From a virus (Duplodnaviria; Heunggongvirae; Uroviricota; Caudoviricetes), in IMG/VR virus record IMGVR_UViG_2870490042_000003: a stretch of DNA of 42,699 nucleotides. The stretch is one strand, 5' to 3'. Under the pieces are notes generated by a model. It was not told the origin of the DNA and did no database searches. It saw only the letters and a program-made list of their open reading frames with translations. Both the position numbers and the translations under genes were made by a program. Position 1 is the first letter of the stretch. Each line of letters begins with the position of its first letter. Shown in pieces: positions 1-38,208 of the stretch.

Positions 1-327
1 TCATTTTTTCCAGAGGCGGTCGAACTCCGCCTTCGCAAAATAAGCGGAAGCCTGGCGAAGGATATCGTTACTGCGGCGCAGTTCACGATTTTCACGTTCC
101 AGCTCTTTCAGACGCTGACGTTCAGCGGTGGTGAGCCCTCCATCACCGCCCCCGGTATCCCGCTCATGCTGGCGAACCCAGACACGCAGAGTCTCCGGCG
201 TACAGCCAATCTTTGGAGCAATGGAACAAATTGTCGCCCATTGTGAGTCATATTCGCTCTGACTTTCCAGAACCATACGGACTGCCCGTTGACGGACTTC
301 GGGGGAAAAACGAGTATTTTTAGTCAT
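1..327 (-). CDS. IS629 transposase OrfA (HTH protein)
   Basis: 108-aa translation identical to the ORF at 1082-1408; IS3-family OrfA-like. Confidence 0.85.
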
Positions 328-381
328 CCTGTTTACCTCTTTCTCAGGAAGTTTAGTCTCCAGGATTCCCGGGGCGGTTCA
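1..381 (-). mobile_element. IS629 (IS3 family), partial copy in inverted orientation, truncated by the window start
   Basis: Terminal repeat CCCGGGGCGGTTCA ends at 381 and is the reverse complement of the left end of the full copy at 1028; bases 1-327 encode an OrfA identical to that of the full copy. Confidence 0.85.
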
Positions 382-549
382 GTTCGTAGGCCACTCAATA
401 TCAGGTGCAGTTGATGTATCAACACGGTTCAGCAACACCCGATACTTTTTCCAGACTTCCAGCAACAAGGTTTCTTCCTCCGTTGCGATTTCCAGCTCAA
501 CAACAGTCTGAACGTACCGGGAACAGCCTCCTTCAGAGCTTGAAGGATA

Positions 550-1027
550 TTAATGTTCGCTTCCTGTTAACTGCCGGACAAGTGCAACCAGTTCGCTTAC
601 CTGATTTTCCAGAGTGCTGATCCGGGTGCCTGCTGTTGCCAGATTTTGACGTAGCGTTGTGTTTTCCTCTTCCAGCGCGGTAACGCGATCATCTGTTTCA
701 CGGGCGACCTGAACAAGTAAACCCGTCACGGCGGCGTAGTCAACATTAAGATAGCGCGTTTCTTCGCGTAGCTCGTTGCCGTCAACGGTCGGGCCTTGCA
801 ACTCTTCACCGTAATGGATGAATGAACCAACGGCCTCCGGGATGGCCTCTTCAACTTCCTGGGCTATAACCCCGGCGCAATGTGCCCCATTCTCCTTGAG
901 CGTGTACGTGTATCCATTAATTTTGCGGATTGCGTCAGTCGCGTTATCGATAATCTCGATATTTTCTTTCAGTCTGCGGTCTGATGACTGATTCAGTGTG
1001 GTGCAGTTAACACTTCCGTTTACAGTA
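550..1027 (-). pseudogene. Displaced 3' fragment of the side tail fibre gene (C-terminal intramolecular chaperone / peptidase S74-like domain)
   Basis: The - frame is open from the IS629 boundary at 1027 to a stop at 550; translation ...NGSVNCTTLNQSSDRRLKENIEIIDNATDAIRKINGYTYTLKENGAHCAGVIAQEVE... carries the SDxxLKxNI autoproteolysis-type motif; it is in frame with the tail fibre ORF upstream once IS629 and one GTA copy are removed. Confidence 0.7.
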
Positions 1028-1081
1028 TGAACCGCCCCGGGAATCCTGGAGACTAAACTTCCTGAGAAAGAGGTAAACAGG

Positions 1082-1408
1082 ATGACTAAAAATACTCGTT
1101 TTTCCCCCGAAGTCCGTCAACGGGCAGTCCGTATGGTTCTGGAAAGTCAGAGCGAATATGACTCACAATGGGCGACAATTTGTTCCATTGCTCCAAAGAT
1201 TGGCTGTACGCCGGAGACTCTGCGTGTCTGGGTTCGCCAGCATGAGCGGGATACCGGGGGCGGTGATGGAGGGCTCACCACCGCTGAACGTCAGCGTCTG
1301 AAAGAGCTGGAACGTGAAAATCGTGAACTGCGCCGCAGTAACGATATCCTTCGCCAGGCTTCCGCTTATTTTGCGAAGGCGGAGTTCGACCGCCTCTGGA
1401 AAAAATGA
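1082..1408 (+). CDS. IS629 transposase OrfA
   Basis: ATG at 1082 preceded by GAGAAAGAGG; 108 aa; ends in an A6 run (1400-1405, TGGAAAAAATGATG), the likely -1 frameshift site giving OrfAB. Confidence 0.85.
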
Positions 1409-2295
1409 TGCCACTGCTGGATAAGCTGCGTGAGCAGTACGGGGTCGGACCGCTATGCAGCGAACTGCATATTGCCCCGTCAACGTATTACCACTGTCAG
1501 CAACAGCGACATCATCCGGATAAACGCAGTGCCCGTGCGCAGCGCGATGACTGGCTGAAGAAAGAGATACAGCGCGTATACGATGAAAATCACAAGGTAT
1601 ACGGTGTGCGTAAAGTCTGGCGTCAGTTGTTACGGGAAGGTATCAGAGTGGCCAGATGCACTGTGGCACGTCTCATGGCGGTTATGGGACTTGCCGGTGT
1701 TCTCCGGGGTAAAAAGGTCCGTACGACCATCAGCCGGAAAGCCGTTGCCGCAGGCGACCGCGTAAACCGTCAGTTCGTGGCAGAACGACCTGACCAGCTG
1801 TGGGTGGCTGATTTTACTTACGTCAGCACATGGCGGGGCTTCGTCTATGTGGCGTTCATCATTGATGTGTTTGCCGGATACATCGTGGGGTGGCGGGTCT
1901 CATCGTCCATGGAAACGACATTCGTGCTGGATGCACTGGAGCAGGCGTTATGGGCCCGTCGACCGTCCGGCACGGTCCATCACAGTGATAAAGGTTCTCA
2001 GTATGTATCGCTGGCCTACACACAGCGGCTTAAGGAAGCCGGATTACTGGCATCAACAGGAAGTACAGGCGACTCGTATGACAACGCGATGGCGGAGAGC
2101 ATCAATGGTCTTTACAAAGCGGAGGTAATACACCGTAAGAGCTGGAAAAACCGTGCAGAAGTGGAACTGGCCACACTCACGTGGGTGGACTGGTATAACA
2201 ATCGACGATTGCTGGAAAGGCTGGGCCATACTCCTCCGGCAGAAGCAGAAAAAGCTTATTATGCTTCCATCGGAAACGATGATCTGGCAGCCTGA
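1405..2295 (+). CDS. IS629 transposase OrfB (DDE integrase-type catalytic domain)
   Basis: 296-aa ORF in -1 frame relative to orfA; IS3-family transposase-like sequence. Confidence 0.85.
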
Positions 2296-2297
2296 GT

Positions 2298-24934: not shown

Positions 24935-25228
24935 ATGAAAAAAATGTTGTTTTCTGCCGCTCTGGCAATGCTTATTACAGGATGTGCTCAACAGACGTTT
25001 ACTGTTGGAAACAAACCGACAGCAGTAACACCAAAGGAAACCATCACCCATCATTTCTTCGTTTCGGGAATTGGACAGGAGAAAACTGTTGATGCAGCCA
25101 AAATTTGTGGCGGCGCAGAAAATGTTGTTAAAACAGAAACCCAGCAAACATTCGTAAATGGATTTCTCGGTTTTATTACTTTAGGCATTTATACTCCACT
25201 GGAAGCGCGTGTGTATTGCTCACAATAA
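24935..25228 (+). CDS. bor: Bor lipoprotein (serum-resistance lipoprotein, Iss-like)
   Basis: 97 aa from ATG 24935; MKKMLFSAALAMLITGC lipobox; lambda Bor-like sequence. Confidence 0.9.
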   Translation: MKKMLFSAALAMLITGCAQQTFTVGNKPTAVTPKETITHHFFVSGIGQEKTVDAAKICGGAENVVKTETQQTFVNGFLGFITLGIYTPLEARVYCSQ

Positions 25229-26669: not shown

Positions 26670-26885
26670 TTACTCTCCCCGTGCCGCCTTACGACGGTCC
26701 TCTCTGATTTTGAAATACAGGTTAGTCAGATATGTCAGCAGCCCAAACAGCAGACTCCCCAGCACGCCTATTGCCGCCCACTGAGACGGGGAAACCCTGT
26801 CCAGCAACTGCAGGAACCAGTAGCCCGTTCCCACCGCTGACGTGGTGTATGACACACCTGTTGTGATTTTTTCCATCTGGTCCAT
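26670..26885 (-). CDS. S: Holin, phage 21 S-like pinholin with dual start (MDQM)
   Basis: 71 aa from ATG 26885; …[50 protein letters not shown] resembles S21; the track's ORF extends to an upstream alternative start. Confidence 0.8.
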
Positions 26886-27641: not shown

Positions 27642-27977
27642 ATGAAGTGGATTGTAATTGATACAGTTATCCAGCCATCATGCGGAATATCTTTTTCAGT
27701 CATATGGAGTAAAGTAAAATTAATAATCTGGTATCAATCGGATGCTTTCTTACCTCCTGAAAGTATATTTACACTGACTCACACAGGTATCATGCTCAAT
27801 AACAAAGTGCTACCTGTAACCATTTACAACGTAGTACCATTCAATAAAACATTCTGGAATTTAATCAAAAACAGCCAGGAATGCCCTACAAATACAGATA
27901 ACGTATTGAATGAATGCTTTAATAACCGTTGCATTCTGCAAATATGTCCTTATGGACTAAAACAACAAAGTCCATAA
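27642..27977 (+). CDS. Hypothetical protein (111 aa) in an AT-rich cargo island, convergent with late transcription
   Basis: ATG 27642 with AAGGAAG SD 4 nt upstream; surrounding 27.40-28.00 kb is markedly AT-rich; no family recognised. Confidence 0.45.
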
Positions 27978-28012
27978 GGAGTTTACTCACATCTGACAAA
28001 ATCAATATAAAC

Positions 28013-28216
28013 AGCCCCTCCGGAGAGGGGCTGGAGAGTGGCGCTATGTGCCATTGCATGGTGCCGGGTGCCTCCCGGTGAATTCAGTACCAGCACCTGA
28101 ATCCGCGATTATCCCATATACCTACTCGCTGATTACCCCTCCGCACAGGGGGATTCACCATGCGAAATTTTTTAACAAACTTCCCGCCGGCCAGACAATA
28201 ATCGCCAGCCTGAATT
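28013..28216. repeat. Copy 1 of a diverged ~205-bp direct repeat beginning with GC-rich hairpin AGCCCCTCCGGAGAGGGGCT
   Basis: Shared blocks with copy 2: AGCCCCTCCGGAGAGGGGCTG, CATGGTGCC..GCCTCCCGGT.AATTCAG, GGGGGATTCACCATGCGA, TTTTTAACAAA, GCCAGACAAT.ATC. Confidence 0.7.
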
Positions 28217-28475
28217 ATGAGCAACGTGGCATTTTACGGGAAAACTGTTTTCTGCAGTAAAAAGGCCCGCCGGAGCGAGCCTGGAAGGATAGCGGTCATG
28301 TGATGCCGGTTTCCCGGTAACTCAGCATCGGTATCTGAGTCAACGTTTTCTCTACTGGGTCATTTCCGATACGTTCCGCCTTCCGGCAGACTTTCATCAC
28401 GTCAGAAAATATAGCACCCTGAGTAACAGGACAGTACTCAGAATTCAGGAAACTGTGACACATCCTGCACAGAAA

Positions 28476-28685
28476 AGCCCCTCCGGAGAGGGGCTGAAGT
28501 ATAGCCTAATTTCTGTCTGTCGCATGGTGCCAGGGGCCTCCCGGTAAATTCAGCCTGTCTACTGAATTTGCATGTTCTCTGGATCATACACTTTGCCAGA
28601 TGCCCCGCCGCTGAGGGGGATTCACCATGCGATGTAATTTTTAACAAATTCTCCGGCAGCCAGACAATCATCAAGCTGTGGAATT
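28476..28685. repeat. Copy 2 of the diverged ~205-bp direct repeat
   Basis: Same conserved blocks as copy 1; the hairpin read on the - strand is followed by TTTTCTGTG. Confidence 0.7.
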
Positions 28686-31488: not shown

Positions 31489-31767
31489 TTACCTCCAGAT
31501 CCGTTGCTGGTATGTGCGGGATGAACGCGGTGGGCGTTCGGAGTAAGGGAGTCTGACTGAGATTATCCAGTGACGGTAGTCGAGGCTAAGAGCTTTCTTA
31601 ACCTCGTATCCGCGCCTGCGGTAACACTGAATTATCCATTCCGCCTGCTCTTCAGTGCATGGAGGATGCTGGAACCAGTCTGATTTGAATGCGTGAAAAC
31701 GCCGTCCGCACCTACTGGCAAAGACGGCAGAATCATTAGAATTGTGTAATTTGGTATCGTGCGCCAT
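31489..31767 (-). CDS. Hypothetical protein (start uncertain)
   Basis: ORF between hok and the DUF968 gene; first ATG at 31767 gives 92 aa; a GTG alternative lies at 31896. Confidence 0.4.
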   Translation of the reverse strand: MAHDTKLHNSNDSAVFASRCGRRFHAFKSDWFQHPPCTEEQAEWIIQCYRRRGYEVKKALSLDYRHWIISVRLPYSERPPRSSRTYQQRIWR

Positions 31768-31840
31768 CGGTTGTCTCTGCTGGCGCAGCAGGTGCCAGTT
31801 GTTCAGGCTGGCGTGCGAATTGTAAACCAGAATGCCAGGA

Positions 31841-31865
31841 AAAAACAAAACCCGCCGAAGCGGGT
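31841..31865 (-). terminator. Intrinsic terminator downstream of hok (probable hok mRNA 3' end)
   Basis: - strand AACCCGC-TTCG-GCGGG followed by TTTTGTTTTTT. Confidence 0.55.
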
Positions 31866-31934
31866 TACGTGCGGGTGCGTTGAGGATGCCTGACACATCA
31901 GAGGTGGCGAGGGATTTCTCCCCCGCCAGGTCTC

Positions 31935-32090
31935 TTACTCCTCAGGTTCGTAAGCTGTGAAGACAGCGACCTCCGTCTGGCCGGTTCGGATTCGTACCTC
32001 GCAGAGGTCTTTCCTCGTTACCAGTGCCGTCACAATGACGGTTAAACAGATGACGATCAGGGCGATTAACATCGCCTTTTGCTGCTTCAT
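31935..32090 (-). CDS. hok: Hok/Gef-family type I toxin (HokD/RelF-like)
   Basis: 51 aa MKQQKAMLIALIVICLTVIVTALVTRKDLCEVRIRTGQTEVAVFTAYEPEE; an in-frame upstream ATG at 32147 would give a 70-aa form. Confidence 0.85.
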   Translation of the reverse strand: MKQQKAMLIALIVICLTVIVTALVTRKDLCEVRIRTGQTEVAVFTAYEPEE

Positions 32091-32349
32091 AGCCTGCTTC
32101 TCCTTGCCTTTCGGCACGTAAGAGGCTAACCTAGATTTGCCGTTCATAGATTGAGCCTCAGATTAATGTTAAGCGTCTTGCAGGACGCGTAATGTTAACT
32201 GGGGCTTTTCTCTATCTGCCTTTTGGTGTTCATGCCTGAGACAGATAGCCTCAAGCACCCGCAGTCATTCTACTTAACTAAGATTTCCCCGCAAACCGTT
32301 TTTGTCCGGCACAGTAAATATCCAACTAAACCAATGGCGTTCGCTGTAT

Positions 32350-32529
32350 TTACCGCCAGTATTCAATGCACATGACCGCCATGAACACCCCTAAAAAAAG
32401 GGCATTTATATATCCAAATATTAATATCAAAACATCAACTTTTTCCATATACCTTGCTGTGAAGATGATGGGCATACATGATACGAACAACCAGAACGCA
32501 ACAAACAAAAACTGCAATGCGTTTTTCAT
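32350..32529 (-). CDS. Small hydrophobic membrane protein (59 aa, two predicted TM segments) in an AT-rich island
   Basis: ATG 32529 with AGGAGG 5 nt upstream; MKNALQFLFVAFWLFVSCMPIIFTARYMEKVDVLILIFGYINALFLGVFMAVMCIEYWR. Confidence 0.55.
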   Translation of the reverse strand: MKNALQFLFVAFWLFVSCMPIIFTARYMEKVDVLILIFGYINALFLGVFMAVMCIEYWR

Positions 32530-32758
32530 TATTCCTCCTACAATCAATGTGCAATTACATTTAAACACACCTCAATTTGGCCGAACATATAAATATCTAA
32601 ACCAGAAAAAATCACTTACATAGCGTTACAAACTCTTTAGTCTAAATATTCATCGTAAAACATTCCCCATACTTATCAGCCCGTTCTGCGCCAGGTAGCT
32701 CATTGCCTTATCTGGGAATCTGTAATCAGGTTTCCGGATGCTGGTGGATTTTCGCGTT

Positions 32759-37801: not shown

Positions 37802-38208
37802 TAGATAACCAACGAAGCTAAGGTTGGTAATTAAGGAGTTCTCCACGGGTGAGGTGGAGTGCGTGCGCCGGACACGGGTGAGCATCCGGCACTGACAGTT
37901 TACTGAAAGGATATTTCCCTGAAAAGTCAGACCATAACGCGAAAGCGCACGGCGAGGTAGCTGGTTCATAGATAGCCTGTCGTTAAATTTTCGTCGACCG
38001 TGCGCTTCCGGTTGTGGCAATCCGCGAAATGGCGCGGCGGTAAGTATGGCGGGGTTATTCCTTCCCCCGTTGAGGACACCGGGTTGTCAGGTTGACCATA
38101 CGCTTAAGTGACAACCCCACTGCAACGCCCTCTGTTATCAATTTTCTGGTGACGTTTGGCGGTATCAGTTTTACTCCGTGACTGCTCTGCCGCCCTTTTT
38201 AAAGTGAA

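What the first reader, a model, noticed from the sequence alone, without database searches (positions are those of the whole stretch)
31841..32529. hok type I toxin locus inside the prophage early region, next to a second small membrane-protein gene
A 51-aa Hok-family toxin (31935-32090) has an in-frame upstream ATG at the position where a Mok-like reading frame would be expected, and a strong terminator after it. The expected Sok antisense RNA would be encoded on the + strand near 32090-32250; I could not place its promoter confidently. About 260 bp upstream, in an AT-rich segment, is a 59-aa protein with two predicted transmembrane segments and a consensus AGGAGG site (32350-32529). It could be a second small toxin or a superinfection-exclusion protein.
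Basis: partly seen in the sequence, partly recalled or inferred. Interest (0 to 1): 0.55.

Follow-up and report, generated by a model that had tools for sequence, protein, structure and literature searches.

The report
Intact prophage hokD/sok toxin–antitoxin cassette
This is an ordinary, already catalogued hok/mok/sok RNA-controlled toxin–antitoxin cassette (the toxin is identical to E. coli HokD) sitting in a lambda-like prophage. An unannotated but conserved 59-residue membrane-protein gene of unknown function lies just upstream.

Summary
Window 32295..31840 (minus strand) is a complete hok/mok/sok type I toxin–antitoxin cassette.

- **Toxin:** Hok (32090..31935) matches Pfam HOK_GEF (E 3e-23) and is 100% identical to E. 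coli K-12 HokD/RelF.
- **Leader:** it matches Rfam RF01794 at 112 bits against a threshold of 59.
- **mRNA switch:** predicted folds of the full-length and 3'-trimmed mRNA reproduce the published R1 switch (tac/fbi, then tac/ucb).
- **Sok:** I place it on the plus strand at about 32139..32210. It has a conserved TTGCCT-17-TAACCT promoter and a strong terminator hairpin, at the position annotated for sokW in phage 933W.
- **Distribution:** the same DNA is 100% identical in many E. coli chromosomes, where RefSeq calls it hokD. The 92%-identical hokW-sokW locus has been characterised experimentally.

The hok part is therefore already known.

The 59-aa ORF (32529..32350) is probably a real gene. 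A second allele, 41% identical, ungapped and of the same length, lies next to a decayed hok remnant in about 1,000 E. coli genomes. Divergence between the two alleles is concentrated at third codon positions (dN/dS about 0.23). It matches no protein family, is unannotated in RefSeq, and is restricted to E. coli and Shigella. Its function is unknown. Interest is low to modest.

The parts
32267..32295 (-). Putative hok promoter: -35 TTTGCG (32295..32290), 17-nt spacer, -10 TAGAAT (32272..32267), with +1 at G32260.
   Evidence: Read from the sequence. The -10 is conserved in all five aligned alleles, including 933W. Homology with the 933W hokW locus begins at 32306. The strict promoter scan did not report it, so this is an inference.
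31843..32260 (-). Full-length hok (mok-hok) mRNA, about 415 nt.
   Evidence: The Rfam model starts at 32260 and the terminator lies at 31866..31849. The MFE fold is -173 kcal/mol, z = -7.3.
32249..32260 (-). tac element (5' GGGUGCUUGAGG).
   Evidence: It pairs with fbi in the full-length fold and with ucb in the 3'-trimmed fold.
32201..32206 (-). ucb, the anti-SD box (AGCCCC).
   Evidence: It pairs with the mok SD in the full-length fold and with tac in the trimmed fold.
31935..32147 (-). mok-like leader reading frame: 70 codons, in frame with hok and sharing its stop codon. SD GAGG at 32159..32156.
   Evidence: It has the same layout as the annotated mokW/hokW of 933W.
32122..32127 (-). dcb box (AGCCUC).
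   Evidence: It pairs with the mok SD in the trimmed mRNA fold.
31935..32090 (-). hok toxin CDS, 51 aa. SD AAGGAG at 32105..32100.
   Evidence: Pfam PF01848 E 3e-23 and PHROG 251 E 3e-33. The protein is 100% identical to K-12 HokD and 47/51 identical to HokW. RefSeq annotates it as hokD.
31873..31885 (-). fbi element (CCUCAACGCACCC).
   Evidence: It pairs with the 5' tac in the MFE and centroid structures of the full-length mRNA.
31840..31866 (-). Intrinsic terminator of the hok mRNA.
   Evidence: a 7-bp stem with 5 G-C pairs, followed by a T-run.
32104..32132 (+). Putative sok promoter: -35 TTGCCT (32104..32109), 17-nt spacer, -10 TAACCT (32127..32132).
   Evidence: Read from the sequence. 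Among the five aligned alleles, including 933W, the -10 hexamer changes only in L008 (TAATCT). The -35 changes only in L006, with a 1-nt insertion in L008. The strict scan did not report it.
32139..32210 (+). Sok antisense RNA, about 70 nt: a single-stranded 5' tail complementary to the mok start region, then a long hairpin (32153..32207) and a U-run.
   Evidence: The 933W sokW annotation starts 8 nt inside mokW and maps onto this position. The fold is -31.9 kcal/mol, z = -6.3. The hairpin is nearly invariant and the 5' tail hypervariable among alleles.
32350..32529 (-). 59-aa two-helix membrane-protein gene ('ORF59'), unannotated in RefSeq. SD AGGAGG at 32539..32534.
   Evidence: A 41%-identical, ungapped, same-length homologue exists (P0037/P0047). 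Codon-position identity is 0.58/0.71/0.47 and pN/pS is 0.34/0.70. AlphaFold2 predicts a helix-loop-helix hairpin at pLDDT 72. The ORF is intact in all 13 fetched loci.
32307..32647 (-). AT-rich segment (29-41% G+C) carrying ORF59. It is inherited together with the hokD-type cassette but is absent from the 933W-type hokW loci.

Best explanation
Window 32295..31840 is an intact hokD-type hok/mok/sok type I toxin–antitoxin cassette. It lies in the nin-type region of a lambdoid E. coli prophage.

Proposed mechanism, inferred from the R1 paradigm and supported here only in silico:
1. A weak promoter makes a roughly 415-nt hok mRNA. The mRNA is locked shut by pairing of its 5' end (tac) with its 3' end (fbi), while the ucb box sequesters the mok ribosome-binding site.
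2. Slow 3' trimming removes fbi. tac then pairs with ucb, and the mok start region becomes accessible.
3. Translation of mok is needed for translation of the overlapping hok frame.
4. The cis-encoded roughly 70-nt Sok RNA is transcribed from the opposite strand, starting 8 nt inside mok. It base-pairs with the mok start region and triggers decay of the mRNA.
5. When Sok synthesis stops, the stable mRNA pool yields Hok. This could happen on loss of the element, host transcription shut-off, or prophage induction. Hok is a 51-aa inner-membrane toxin identical to HokD/RelF and it depolarises and kills the cell.

For a prophage, the plausible pay-offs are element retention, abortive infection of competing phages, or help with lysis on induction, as shown for hokW-sokW.

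Immediately upstream, and co-inherited with the cassette, lies a probable real gene for a 59-aa helical-hairpin membrane protein of unknown function. It has no recognisable promoter of its own. It is most likely expressed as part of the delayed-early rightward transcript, as a prophage accessory membrane protein.
For: - **Toxin identity:** Pfam HOK_GEF 3e-23 and PHROG 251 'MokW-like host killing' 3e-33. It is 100% identical to K-12 HokD.
- **Toxicity of HokD:** the Hok survey preprint used it as a previously characterised toxic control and cites overexpression studies.
- **Leader RNA:** Rfam RF01794 matches its full length at 112 bits against a threshold of 59.
- **mRNA switch:** the full-length fold shows tac/fbi and ucb/mok-SD pairing. 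The 3'-trimmed fold shows tac/ucb and mok-SD/dcb pairing. This matches the R1 mechanism as described in PMC9841398.
- **Sok:** the promoter hexamers and hairpin are conserved across alleles, including 933W, where sokW is annotated at the same relative position. The hairpin folds with z = -6.3.
- **Homologue tested experimentally:** hokW-sokW acts as a type I TA. Its sokW RNA falls after mitomycin C, and it doubles Sp5 phage release (PMC8621323).
- **Context:** Cro/CI, YdaT, DUF977 ... hok ... DUF968, RusA, Q.
- **K-12 comparison:** K-12 keeps only 32104..31841 of this locus, downstream of relBE. The window therefore holds the complete form of the truncated K-12 hokD.
- **ORF59:** see the parts list.
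Against: - Nothing here shows transcription of hok or Sok, or Hok production, in this strain.
- The consensus promoter scan found no sigma-70 site on either strand. Both promoters are therefore placed by homology and by eye.
[quoted passage not shown] An intact sequence does not guarantee activity.
- Within the window-type allele of ORF59, all four observed substitutions are non-synonymous.
- Frameshifted ORF59 variants at the T7 run (32399..32393) exist in public assemblies.
- RefSeq does not annotate ORF59.
Confidence: 0.88

Rival explanations
1. The cassette is intact in sequence but functionally inert. On this view it is a hitch-hiking relic that gives the prophage or host no phenotype, as reported for other chromosomal hok/sok loci.
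For: [quoted passage not shown] Many related copies have lost the toxin. An ISEsa1-family element replaces everything from the hok ATG onward in L004, L006, L009 and L010. K-12 lacks the leader, and the sit-linked copy is a 62-nt remnant.
Against: All regulatory elements are present and fold as expected. The toxin is identical to HokD, which the survey lists as toxic. The 92%-identical hokW-sokW has a measurable phenotype on prophage induction.
Confidence: 0.2
2. The 59-aa ORF is not a gene. It would be a chance open frame in AT-rich intergenic DNA upstream of the hok promoter.
For: PGAP does not call it. It matches no Pfam, PHROG, NCBIfam or PADLOC family. Phage annotators called the opposite strand instead. 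All four within-allele substitutions are non-synonymous. Frameshifted alleles exist. No promoter was found.
Against: The homologue is 41% identical, ungapped and of identical length, with aligned start and stop codons. Third codon positions are the least conserved and second positions the most (0.47 against 0.71), and pN 0.34 is below pS 0.70. Only 0.6-1.4% of composition-matched shuffles stay open over 59 codons. The opposite strand is closed in the second allele. Conserved polar and small residues sit inside both helices (S17, C18, P20, T24, G39, N42). The SD is a consensus AGGAGG.
Confidence: 0.2
3. The 59-aa protein is a second membrane toxin, either an orphan or one controlled by an RNA. 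This would make the segment a double-toxin islet.
For: It is small, very hydrophobic and forms a two-helix hairpin. It lies beside a type I TA. From my own knowledge, its size and topology resemble two-TM toxins such as GhoT and OrtT.
Against: No antisense promoter, terminator or RNA-family hit was found over or beside it. It matches no toxin family by sequence. It stays intact, with a strong SD, in loci that have lost hok and have no obvious antitoxin. That is hard to reconcile with a potent toxin.
Confidence: 0.1
4. The 59-aa protein is a functional partner of Hok. It might be a membrane modulator or immunity factor that tunes Hok killing or lysis timing.
For: Two alleles only 41% identical to each other both sit immediately upstream of hok sequence. 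The segment is co-inherited with the hokD-type cassette while the upstream neighbours vary.
Against: Most hok loci lack it, including 933W hokW and other phage copies whose homology starts at about 32306. It persists in more than 1,000 genomes where hok is reduced to a remnant or replaced by an IS. No precedent is known to me.
Confidence: 0.1

Closest known systems
hokD (relF) of the E. coli K-12 Qin cryptic prophage
   Same: The toxin protein is 100% identical. The DNA is 98% identical over 32104..31841. The downstream neighbourhood is the same: the DUF968/YdfU homologue and the Q antiterminator, with K-12 additionally carrying rem.
   Different: K-12 retains only 14 nt upstream of the hok ATG. 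There relBE replaces the hok promoter, the tac/ucb leader, the mok start and sok. The window carries the complete cassette plus ORF59.
hokW-mokW-sokW of Stx phage 933W / Sakai prophage Sp5 (experimentally characterised, PMC8621323)
   Same: The DNA is 92% identical over 32306..31863. Hok is 47/51 identical. The mok/hok/sok layout and the Sok hairpin are the same.
   Different: The Sok 5' tail and mok N-terminus differ (MNGKS... against MLNTC...), so Sok recognition may be allele-specific. hokW lies near the right end of the phage genome rather than in the nin region, and it has no ORF59 segment upstream.
hok/sok (parB) of plasmid R1, the family paradigm
   Same: The gene set and RNA logic are the same: tac/fbi lock, ucb/dcb switch, mok-coupled translation and a cis-antisense Sok.
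   Different: It has a different replicon and a different biological setting (plasmid stabilisation). The sequences are diverged. Post-segregational killing has not been shown for this prophage copy.
Unannotated 59-aa ORF next to sitABCD in B2-type E. coli (for example EEJ46887.1 of strain 83972; P0043/P0047)
   Same: It is the only homologue of ORF59 found: 41% identical, same length, same predicted topology, and immediately upstream of hok-derived sequence inside a prophage remnant.
   Different: Its hok is reduced to a 62-nt remnant with an in-frame stop. Its SD is weak (GGGA). It sits in a fixed chromosomal remnant rather than a complete prophage.

Membership tests
[quoted passage not shown] | A toxin of about 50 aa with an N-terminal transmembrane helix and the conserved Hok C-terminal region. 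| tested here: met
   PF01848 E 3e-23, 81.6 bits against a cut-off of 22. The protein is identical to HokD.
[quoted passage not shown] | An overlapping upstream leader frame (mok) with its own SD, through which hok is translated. | tested here: met
   A 70-codon frame runs from ATG 32147, with GAGG 8 nt upstream. The layout matches the annotated mokW. Translational coupling itself was not tested.
[quoted passage not shown] | Conserved sequence and structure of the hok mRNA leader. | tested here: met
   RF01794 matches model positions 1-157 of 157 at 112.4 bits against a gathering score of 59.
[quoted passage not shown] | Long-range 5'-3' (tac/fbi) pairing in the full-length mRNA, with a switch to tac/ucb after 3' trimming. 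| tested here: met
   The MFE and centroid of the full-length RNA pair 32260..32249 with 31885..31873. The trimmed RNA pairs tac with AGCCCC and the mok SD with AGCCUC. These are in silico results only.
[quoted passage not shown] | A cis-encoded antisense Sok RNA with its own promoter and terminator, complementary to the mok translation-initiation region. | tested here: met
   TTGCCT-17-TAACCT, with a start about 8 nt inside mok as in annotated sokW. The hairpin plus U-run has z = -6.3. The strict promoter scan was negative, and transcription was not tested.
[quoted passage not shown] | Toxicity of Hok and neutralisation by Sok. | not testable with these tools
   Literature only. HokD is listed as a previously characterised toxic control. 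hokW-sokW was shown to act as a TA pair.
Type I toxin (considered for the 59-aa ORF) | A small hydrophobic toxin gene overlapped or flanked by an antisense RNA gene with a promoter and terminator. | tested here: not met
   No promoter-like or terminator-like site on either strand in 32300..32750. No RNA family reached its gathering score there, and there are no inverted repeats.
Known small two-TM membrane toxins, holins or defence proteins (considered for the 59-aa ORF) | Sequence membership in a described family. | tested here: not met
   No hit at E <= 0.1 in Pfam or PHROGs. Only chance-level hits in NCBIfam and none in PADLOC. The prophage has its own class II holin at 26670..26885.
Superinfection-exclusion membrane proteins (considered for the 59-aa ORF) | Blocks entry or DNA injection of incoming phage. 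| not testable with these tools
   These proteins have no common sequence signature, so a phage challenge assay is needed.

The most novel reading that the evidence does not exclude
The unannotated 59-aa helical-hairpin protein defines a new small-membrane-protein family that is functionally tied to hok. Two alleles only 41% identical both sit directly upstream of hok sequence in lambdoid prophage DNA. This could mean the protein tunes or counteracts Hok action at the inner membrane. It might, for example, set lysis timing on induction or protect the lysogen from leaky Hok. That would add a protein component to a system thought to be purely RNA-regulated.
Probability: 0.1. Interest if true: 0.5.

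Novelty: already known. Interest (0 to 1): 0.2.

Why it matters
The hok part matters little as a discovery. It is a textbook family, it is annotated as hokD in RefSeq, and a 92%-identical prophage copy has been studied. It is still a useful reference, because it shows the complete ancestral form of the truncated K-12 hokD/relF locus, with promoter, leader, mok and sok intact.

The only open item is the 59-aa membrane protein. It is conserved, shows signs of purifying selection, is missing from the RefSeq annotations examined here, and is present in roughly 1,600 (window type) plus 1,000 (second type) of 5,426 complete E. coli genomes. It is a cheap candidate for small-protein validation and for testing a link with Hok.

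Tried and rejected
1. **Strict promoter scan of 31750..32750.** It found no sites, so the hok and sok promoters rest on homology and conservation. No promoter could be assigned to ORF59.
2. **Within-allele variation of ORF59.** There were only 4 substitutions in 180 nt among 7 sequences, all non-synonymous. That is too few to test selection, so I relied on the comparison between the two alleles instead.
3. **The plus-strand 85-aa ORF (32366..32623).** It is annotated as 'hornerin' or 'hypothetical protein' in phage records. I rejected it because it has no family hit and all three opposite-strand frames are closed in the second allele.
4. **Searches for more distant ORF59 relatives.**
   - HMMER against 1.84 billion representatives.
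   - A profile search of 5.8 billion proteins.
   - A scan of GTDB genomes, which found only Shigella plus a short, chance-level Asticcacaulis match.
   - tblastn against phages, which found three E. coli phages.
   - A plasmid search, which found four hits.

   Nothing was found outside E. coli, Shigella and their elements, apart from one Klebsiella oxytoca plasmid record.
5. **Family libraries.** Pfam, PHROGs, NCBIfam and PADLOC gave no meaningful hit for ORF59.
6. **Sub-threshold Rfam hit.** isrK on the hok 3' UTR scored 27 bits against a threshold of 50. I treated it as chance or distant resemblance.
7. **Literature for the ORF59 peptide.** The search found nothing. A CFT073 Ribo-seq preprint that might cover the second allele was listed but could not be opened.

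Full report
**1. What is at the coordinates**

The elements lie on the minus strand.
- A 51-codon ORF runs 32090..31935, preceded by AAGGAG at 32105..32100.
- An in-frame ATG at 32147 gives a 70-codon frame, with GAGG 8 nt upstream.
- A G+C-rich stem at 31866..31849 is followed by a T-run. This was the only terminator-like site found in 31750..32750.
- Further upstream, a 59-codon ORF runs 32529..32350, with AGGAGG at 32539..32534.
- G+C drops to 29-35% across about 32360..32660, against 47-58% on both sides.

**2. Identity of the toxin locus**

- The 70-aa frame matches Pfam HOK_GEF (E 3e-23).
- The 51-aa product matches PHROG 251 'MokW-like host killing' (E 3e-33).
- Rfam RF01794 (named 'sok' but modelled on the hok-leader strand) matches 32260..32085 on the minus strand. 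The match covers the whole model at 112.4 bits, against a gathering score of 59.
- The 901-nt stretch 31800..32700 is 100% identical in many E. coli chromosomes, where PGAP names the gene hokD.
- 4,955 of 5,426 complete genomes match some part of this stretch, and 1,068 match at least 80% of it.
- The protein is 100% identical to K-12 HokD (RelF) and 47/51 identical to HokW of phage 933W.
- In 933W, mokW, hokW and the antisense sokW are annotated. The window is 92% identical to that locus over 32306..31863.

**3. Is the locus intact or decayed?**

It looks intact. The full-length RNA (32260..31843) has an MFE and centroid structure in which the first 12 nt (GGGUGCUUGAGG, tac) pair with CCUCAACGCACCC at 31885..31873 (fbi). 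In the same structure AGCCCC (ucb, 32206..32201) pairs with the mok SD. The fold has z = -7.3 against shuffles.

Removing the 3' end, including fbi, changes the predicted fold. tac now pairs with ucb, and the mok SD pairs with AGCCUC (dcb, 32127..32122). This is the closed-to-open switch described for R1 hok mRNA (PMC9841398).

**4. Placing Sok**

In 933W, sokW starts 8 nt inside mokW. The same register in the window gives a start at about 32139 on the plus strand.
- Upstream lie TTGCCT (32104..32109), a 17-nt spacer, and TAACCT (32127..32132).
- Downstream, the RNA has a roughly 14-nt single-stranded tail complementary to the mok start region.
- A long hairpin (32153..32207) and a U-run follow. 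The fold is -31.9 kcal/mol, z = -6.3.

I aligned five alleles: the window, 933W and three E. coli chromosomes. The promoter hexamers show few changes and the hairpin is almost invariant. In contrast, 32134..32154 (the Sok 5' tail and mok N-terminus) is hypervariable. That pattern fits a conserved antisense gene whose recognition region diversifies.

The strict consensus scan did not call either promoter, so both are inferences. A putative hok promoter (TTTGCG-17-TAGAAT, 32295..32267) precedes G32260, and its -10 is conserved.

**5. Context and relation to K-12**

From 1814 to its end, the window is 99.98% identical to E. coli M217. The annotation of that strain shows a nearly complete lambdoid prophage.
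- Integrase and excisionase, the exonuclease, and the dicB/ydfD genes with DicF lie on the plus-strand left arm.
- The minus strand carries, in order:
  - the LexA-family repressor, Cro/CI and YdaT;
  - a replication-region gene, DUF977 and several small genes;
  - the AT-rich segment and hokD;
  - a 92-aa protein (PHROG 1212), DUF968/YdfU, RusA and Q;
  - tRNA-Ile and the lysis genes;
  - HK97-type head genes and lambda-type tail genes.

In K-12 Qin, homology to the window covers only 32104..31841. relE-relB lie immediately upstream. K-12 hokD therefore lacks the promoter, tac/ucb leader, mok start and sok that the window retains.

Other relatives have lost the toxin instead. In ATCC 8739-like strains and phage PhiR42_1, an ISEsa1-family element replaces everything from the hok ATG (32089) onward. 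The leader and sok remain.

**6. Likely function**

By family mechanism, Hok is made only when Sok synthesis ceases. For the close homologue hokW-sokW, mitomycin C removed sokW RNA, HokW accumulated in the inner membrane in a RecA-dependent way, and phage release halved without the locus (PMC8621323).

A recent survey found hok enriched about four-fold in prophages and lists HokD among previously characterised toxic controls. It also recalls that chromosomal hok/sok loci failed to give post-segregational killing (10.1101/2025.08.07.668861).

I therefore rate the identity and mechanism as near certain. The benefit to the prophage is open. It could be retention, abortive infection or help with lysis.

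**7. The 59-aa ORF**

*Annotation.* RefSeq does not annotate it. Two phage records instead annotate an opposite-strand ORF, one calling it 'hornerin'. ORF59 has no hit in Pfam, PHROGs, NCBIfam or PADLOC.

*Distribution.* The AT-rich segment occurs in 1,584 of 5,426 E. coli genomes, always at 95% identity or more. That diversity is too low to test selection: only four substitutions were seen, all non-synonymous. Frameshifted variants at the T7 run exist among database proteins.

*A second allele.* An exhaustive HMMER search found a second allele (P0037/P0047; EEJ46887.1 of strain 83972). It is 59 aa, 41% identical and ungapped. Its locus sits in a prophage remnant between sitABCD and uspF in 1,045 genomes. 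About 55 nt downstream of its stop codon there is a 62-nt stretch 80.6% identical to hok codons about 23-43, now carrying an in-frame stop.

*Evidence for coding.*
- Between the two alleles, identity by codon position is 0.58/0.71/0.47.
- pN is 0.34 and pS is 0.70, giving dN/dS of about 0.23, although dS is near saturation.
- Only 0.6-1.4% of composition-matched shuffles remain open.
- The opposite strand is closed in the second allele.
- AlphaFold2 predicts two helices (residues 2-26 and 31-58) at pLDDT 72.
- Invariant positions include W13, S17, C18, P20, T24, G39, N42, E56, W58 and R59.
- The ORF is intact in all 13 loci I fetched, including those without a hok CDS.

*Conclusion.* It is probably a real small inner-membrane protein gene, historically linked to hok but maintained without it. 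I found no antisense RNA signals, so I do not file it as a type I toxin. Its function is unknown. My best guess is a prophage accessory membrane protein expressed from the rightward early transcript.

**8. Verdict**

The hok/mok/sok cassette is already known and annotated, so its interest is low. The small membrane protein is a modest, testable lead.

Noticed in passing
window 32134-32154: The Sok 5' tail and mok N-terminal region are hypervariable among otherwise 92-96% identical alleles (MNGKS... here, MLNTC... in 933W and others). The sok promoter and hairpin stay conserved. This may give allele-specific Sok/hok recognition in genomes that carry several copies (median 2 and up to 10 matching places per genome).
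   Followed up: partly
window 31949-31953 (also 31993-31997): The Tyr47 codon of hok lies in CUUACGAA, a mimic of the tRNA-Arg anticodon loop containing the UACG motif used by TadA for A-to-I editing. Editing would recode Tyr to Cys. The Hok survey preprint says such editing is observed in hokB, hokC, hokD and hokE mRNAs.
   Followed up: no
L004, L006, L009, L010 (equivalent to window 32089): In ATCC 8739-like strains and phage PhiR42_1, an ISEsa1-family element replaces everything from the hok start codon onward. ORF59, the hok promoter, the leader and sok remain, leaving an orphan antitoxin RNA gene.
   Followed up: partly
L012 1063-1124 / L016 (between sitA and uspF): A 62-nt hok remnant with an in-frame stop lies just downstream of the second ORF59 allele, in a prophage remnant next to sitABCD. 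It occurs in 1,045 of 5,426 E. coli genomes, and neither feature is annotated.
   Followed up: partly
window 32366-32623 (+): An 85-codon plus-strand ORF is annotated in two phage GenBank records as 'hornerin' or 'hypothetical protein'. It overlaps ORF59 antisense and is probably a spurious call, because the frame is closed in the diverged allele.
   Followed up: yes
window 28003-28191 and 28467-28660 (-): Two tandem copies of the STnc100 sRNA family (132 and 138 bits) lie downstream of the Q antiterminator and tRNA-Ile, around the late-promoter region. IraM and a small pseudogene are nearby.
   Followed up: no
window 38144-38195 (+): A DicF sRNA (76.7 bits) lies upstream of dicB/ydfD in the leftward operon, so the prophage has a Qin-type left arm.
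   Followed up: no
window 1-2296: The left end of the window carries an apparently intact IS3-family element: orfA 1082-1408 and orfB 1405-2295, with the ALIL frameshift pseudoknot at 1363-1479. The otherwise 99.98%-identical strain M217 has a group II intron (ltrA) there instead.
   Followed up: partly
window 31845-31926 (-): The hok 3' UTR and terminator give a sub-threshold match to Salmonella IsrK (27 bits against a threshold of 50, E 0.0013). This is probably chance or distant resemblance.
   Followed up: no
window 24935-25228 (+) and 27642-27977 (+): The same prophage carries lysogenic-conversion-type genes: iss (the serum-survival lipoprotein, a bor homologue) and the anti-adaptor iraM.
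   Followed up: no
L008 (E. coli EE72d), equivalent to window 32140-32150: In this allele the mok frame has no ATG in the usual position, because of a 2-nt deletion and substitutions. hok may therefore be untranslatable there despite an intact CDS.
   Followed up: no
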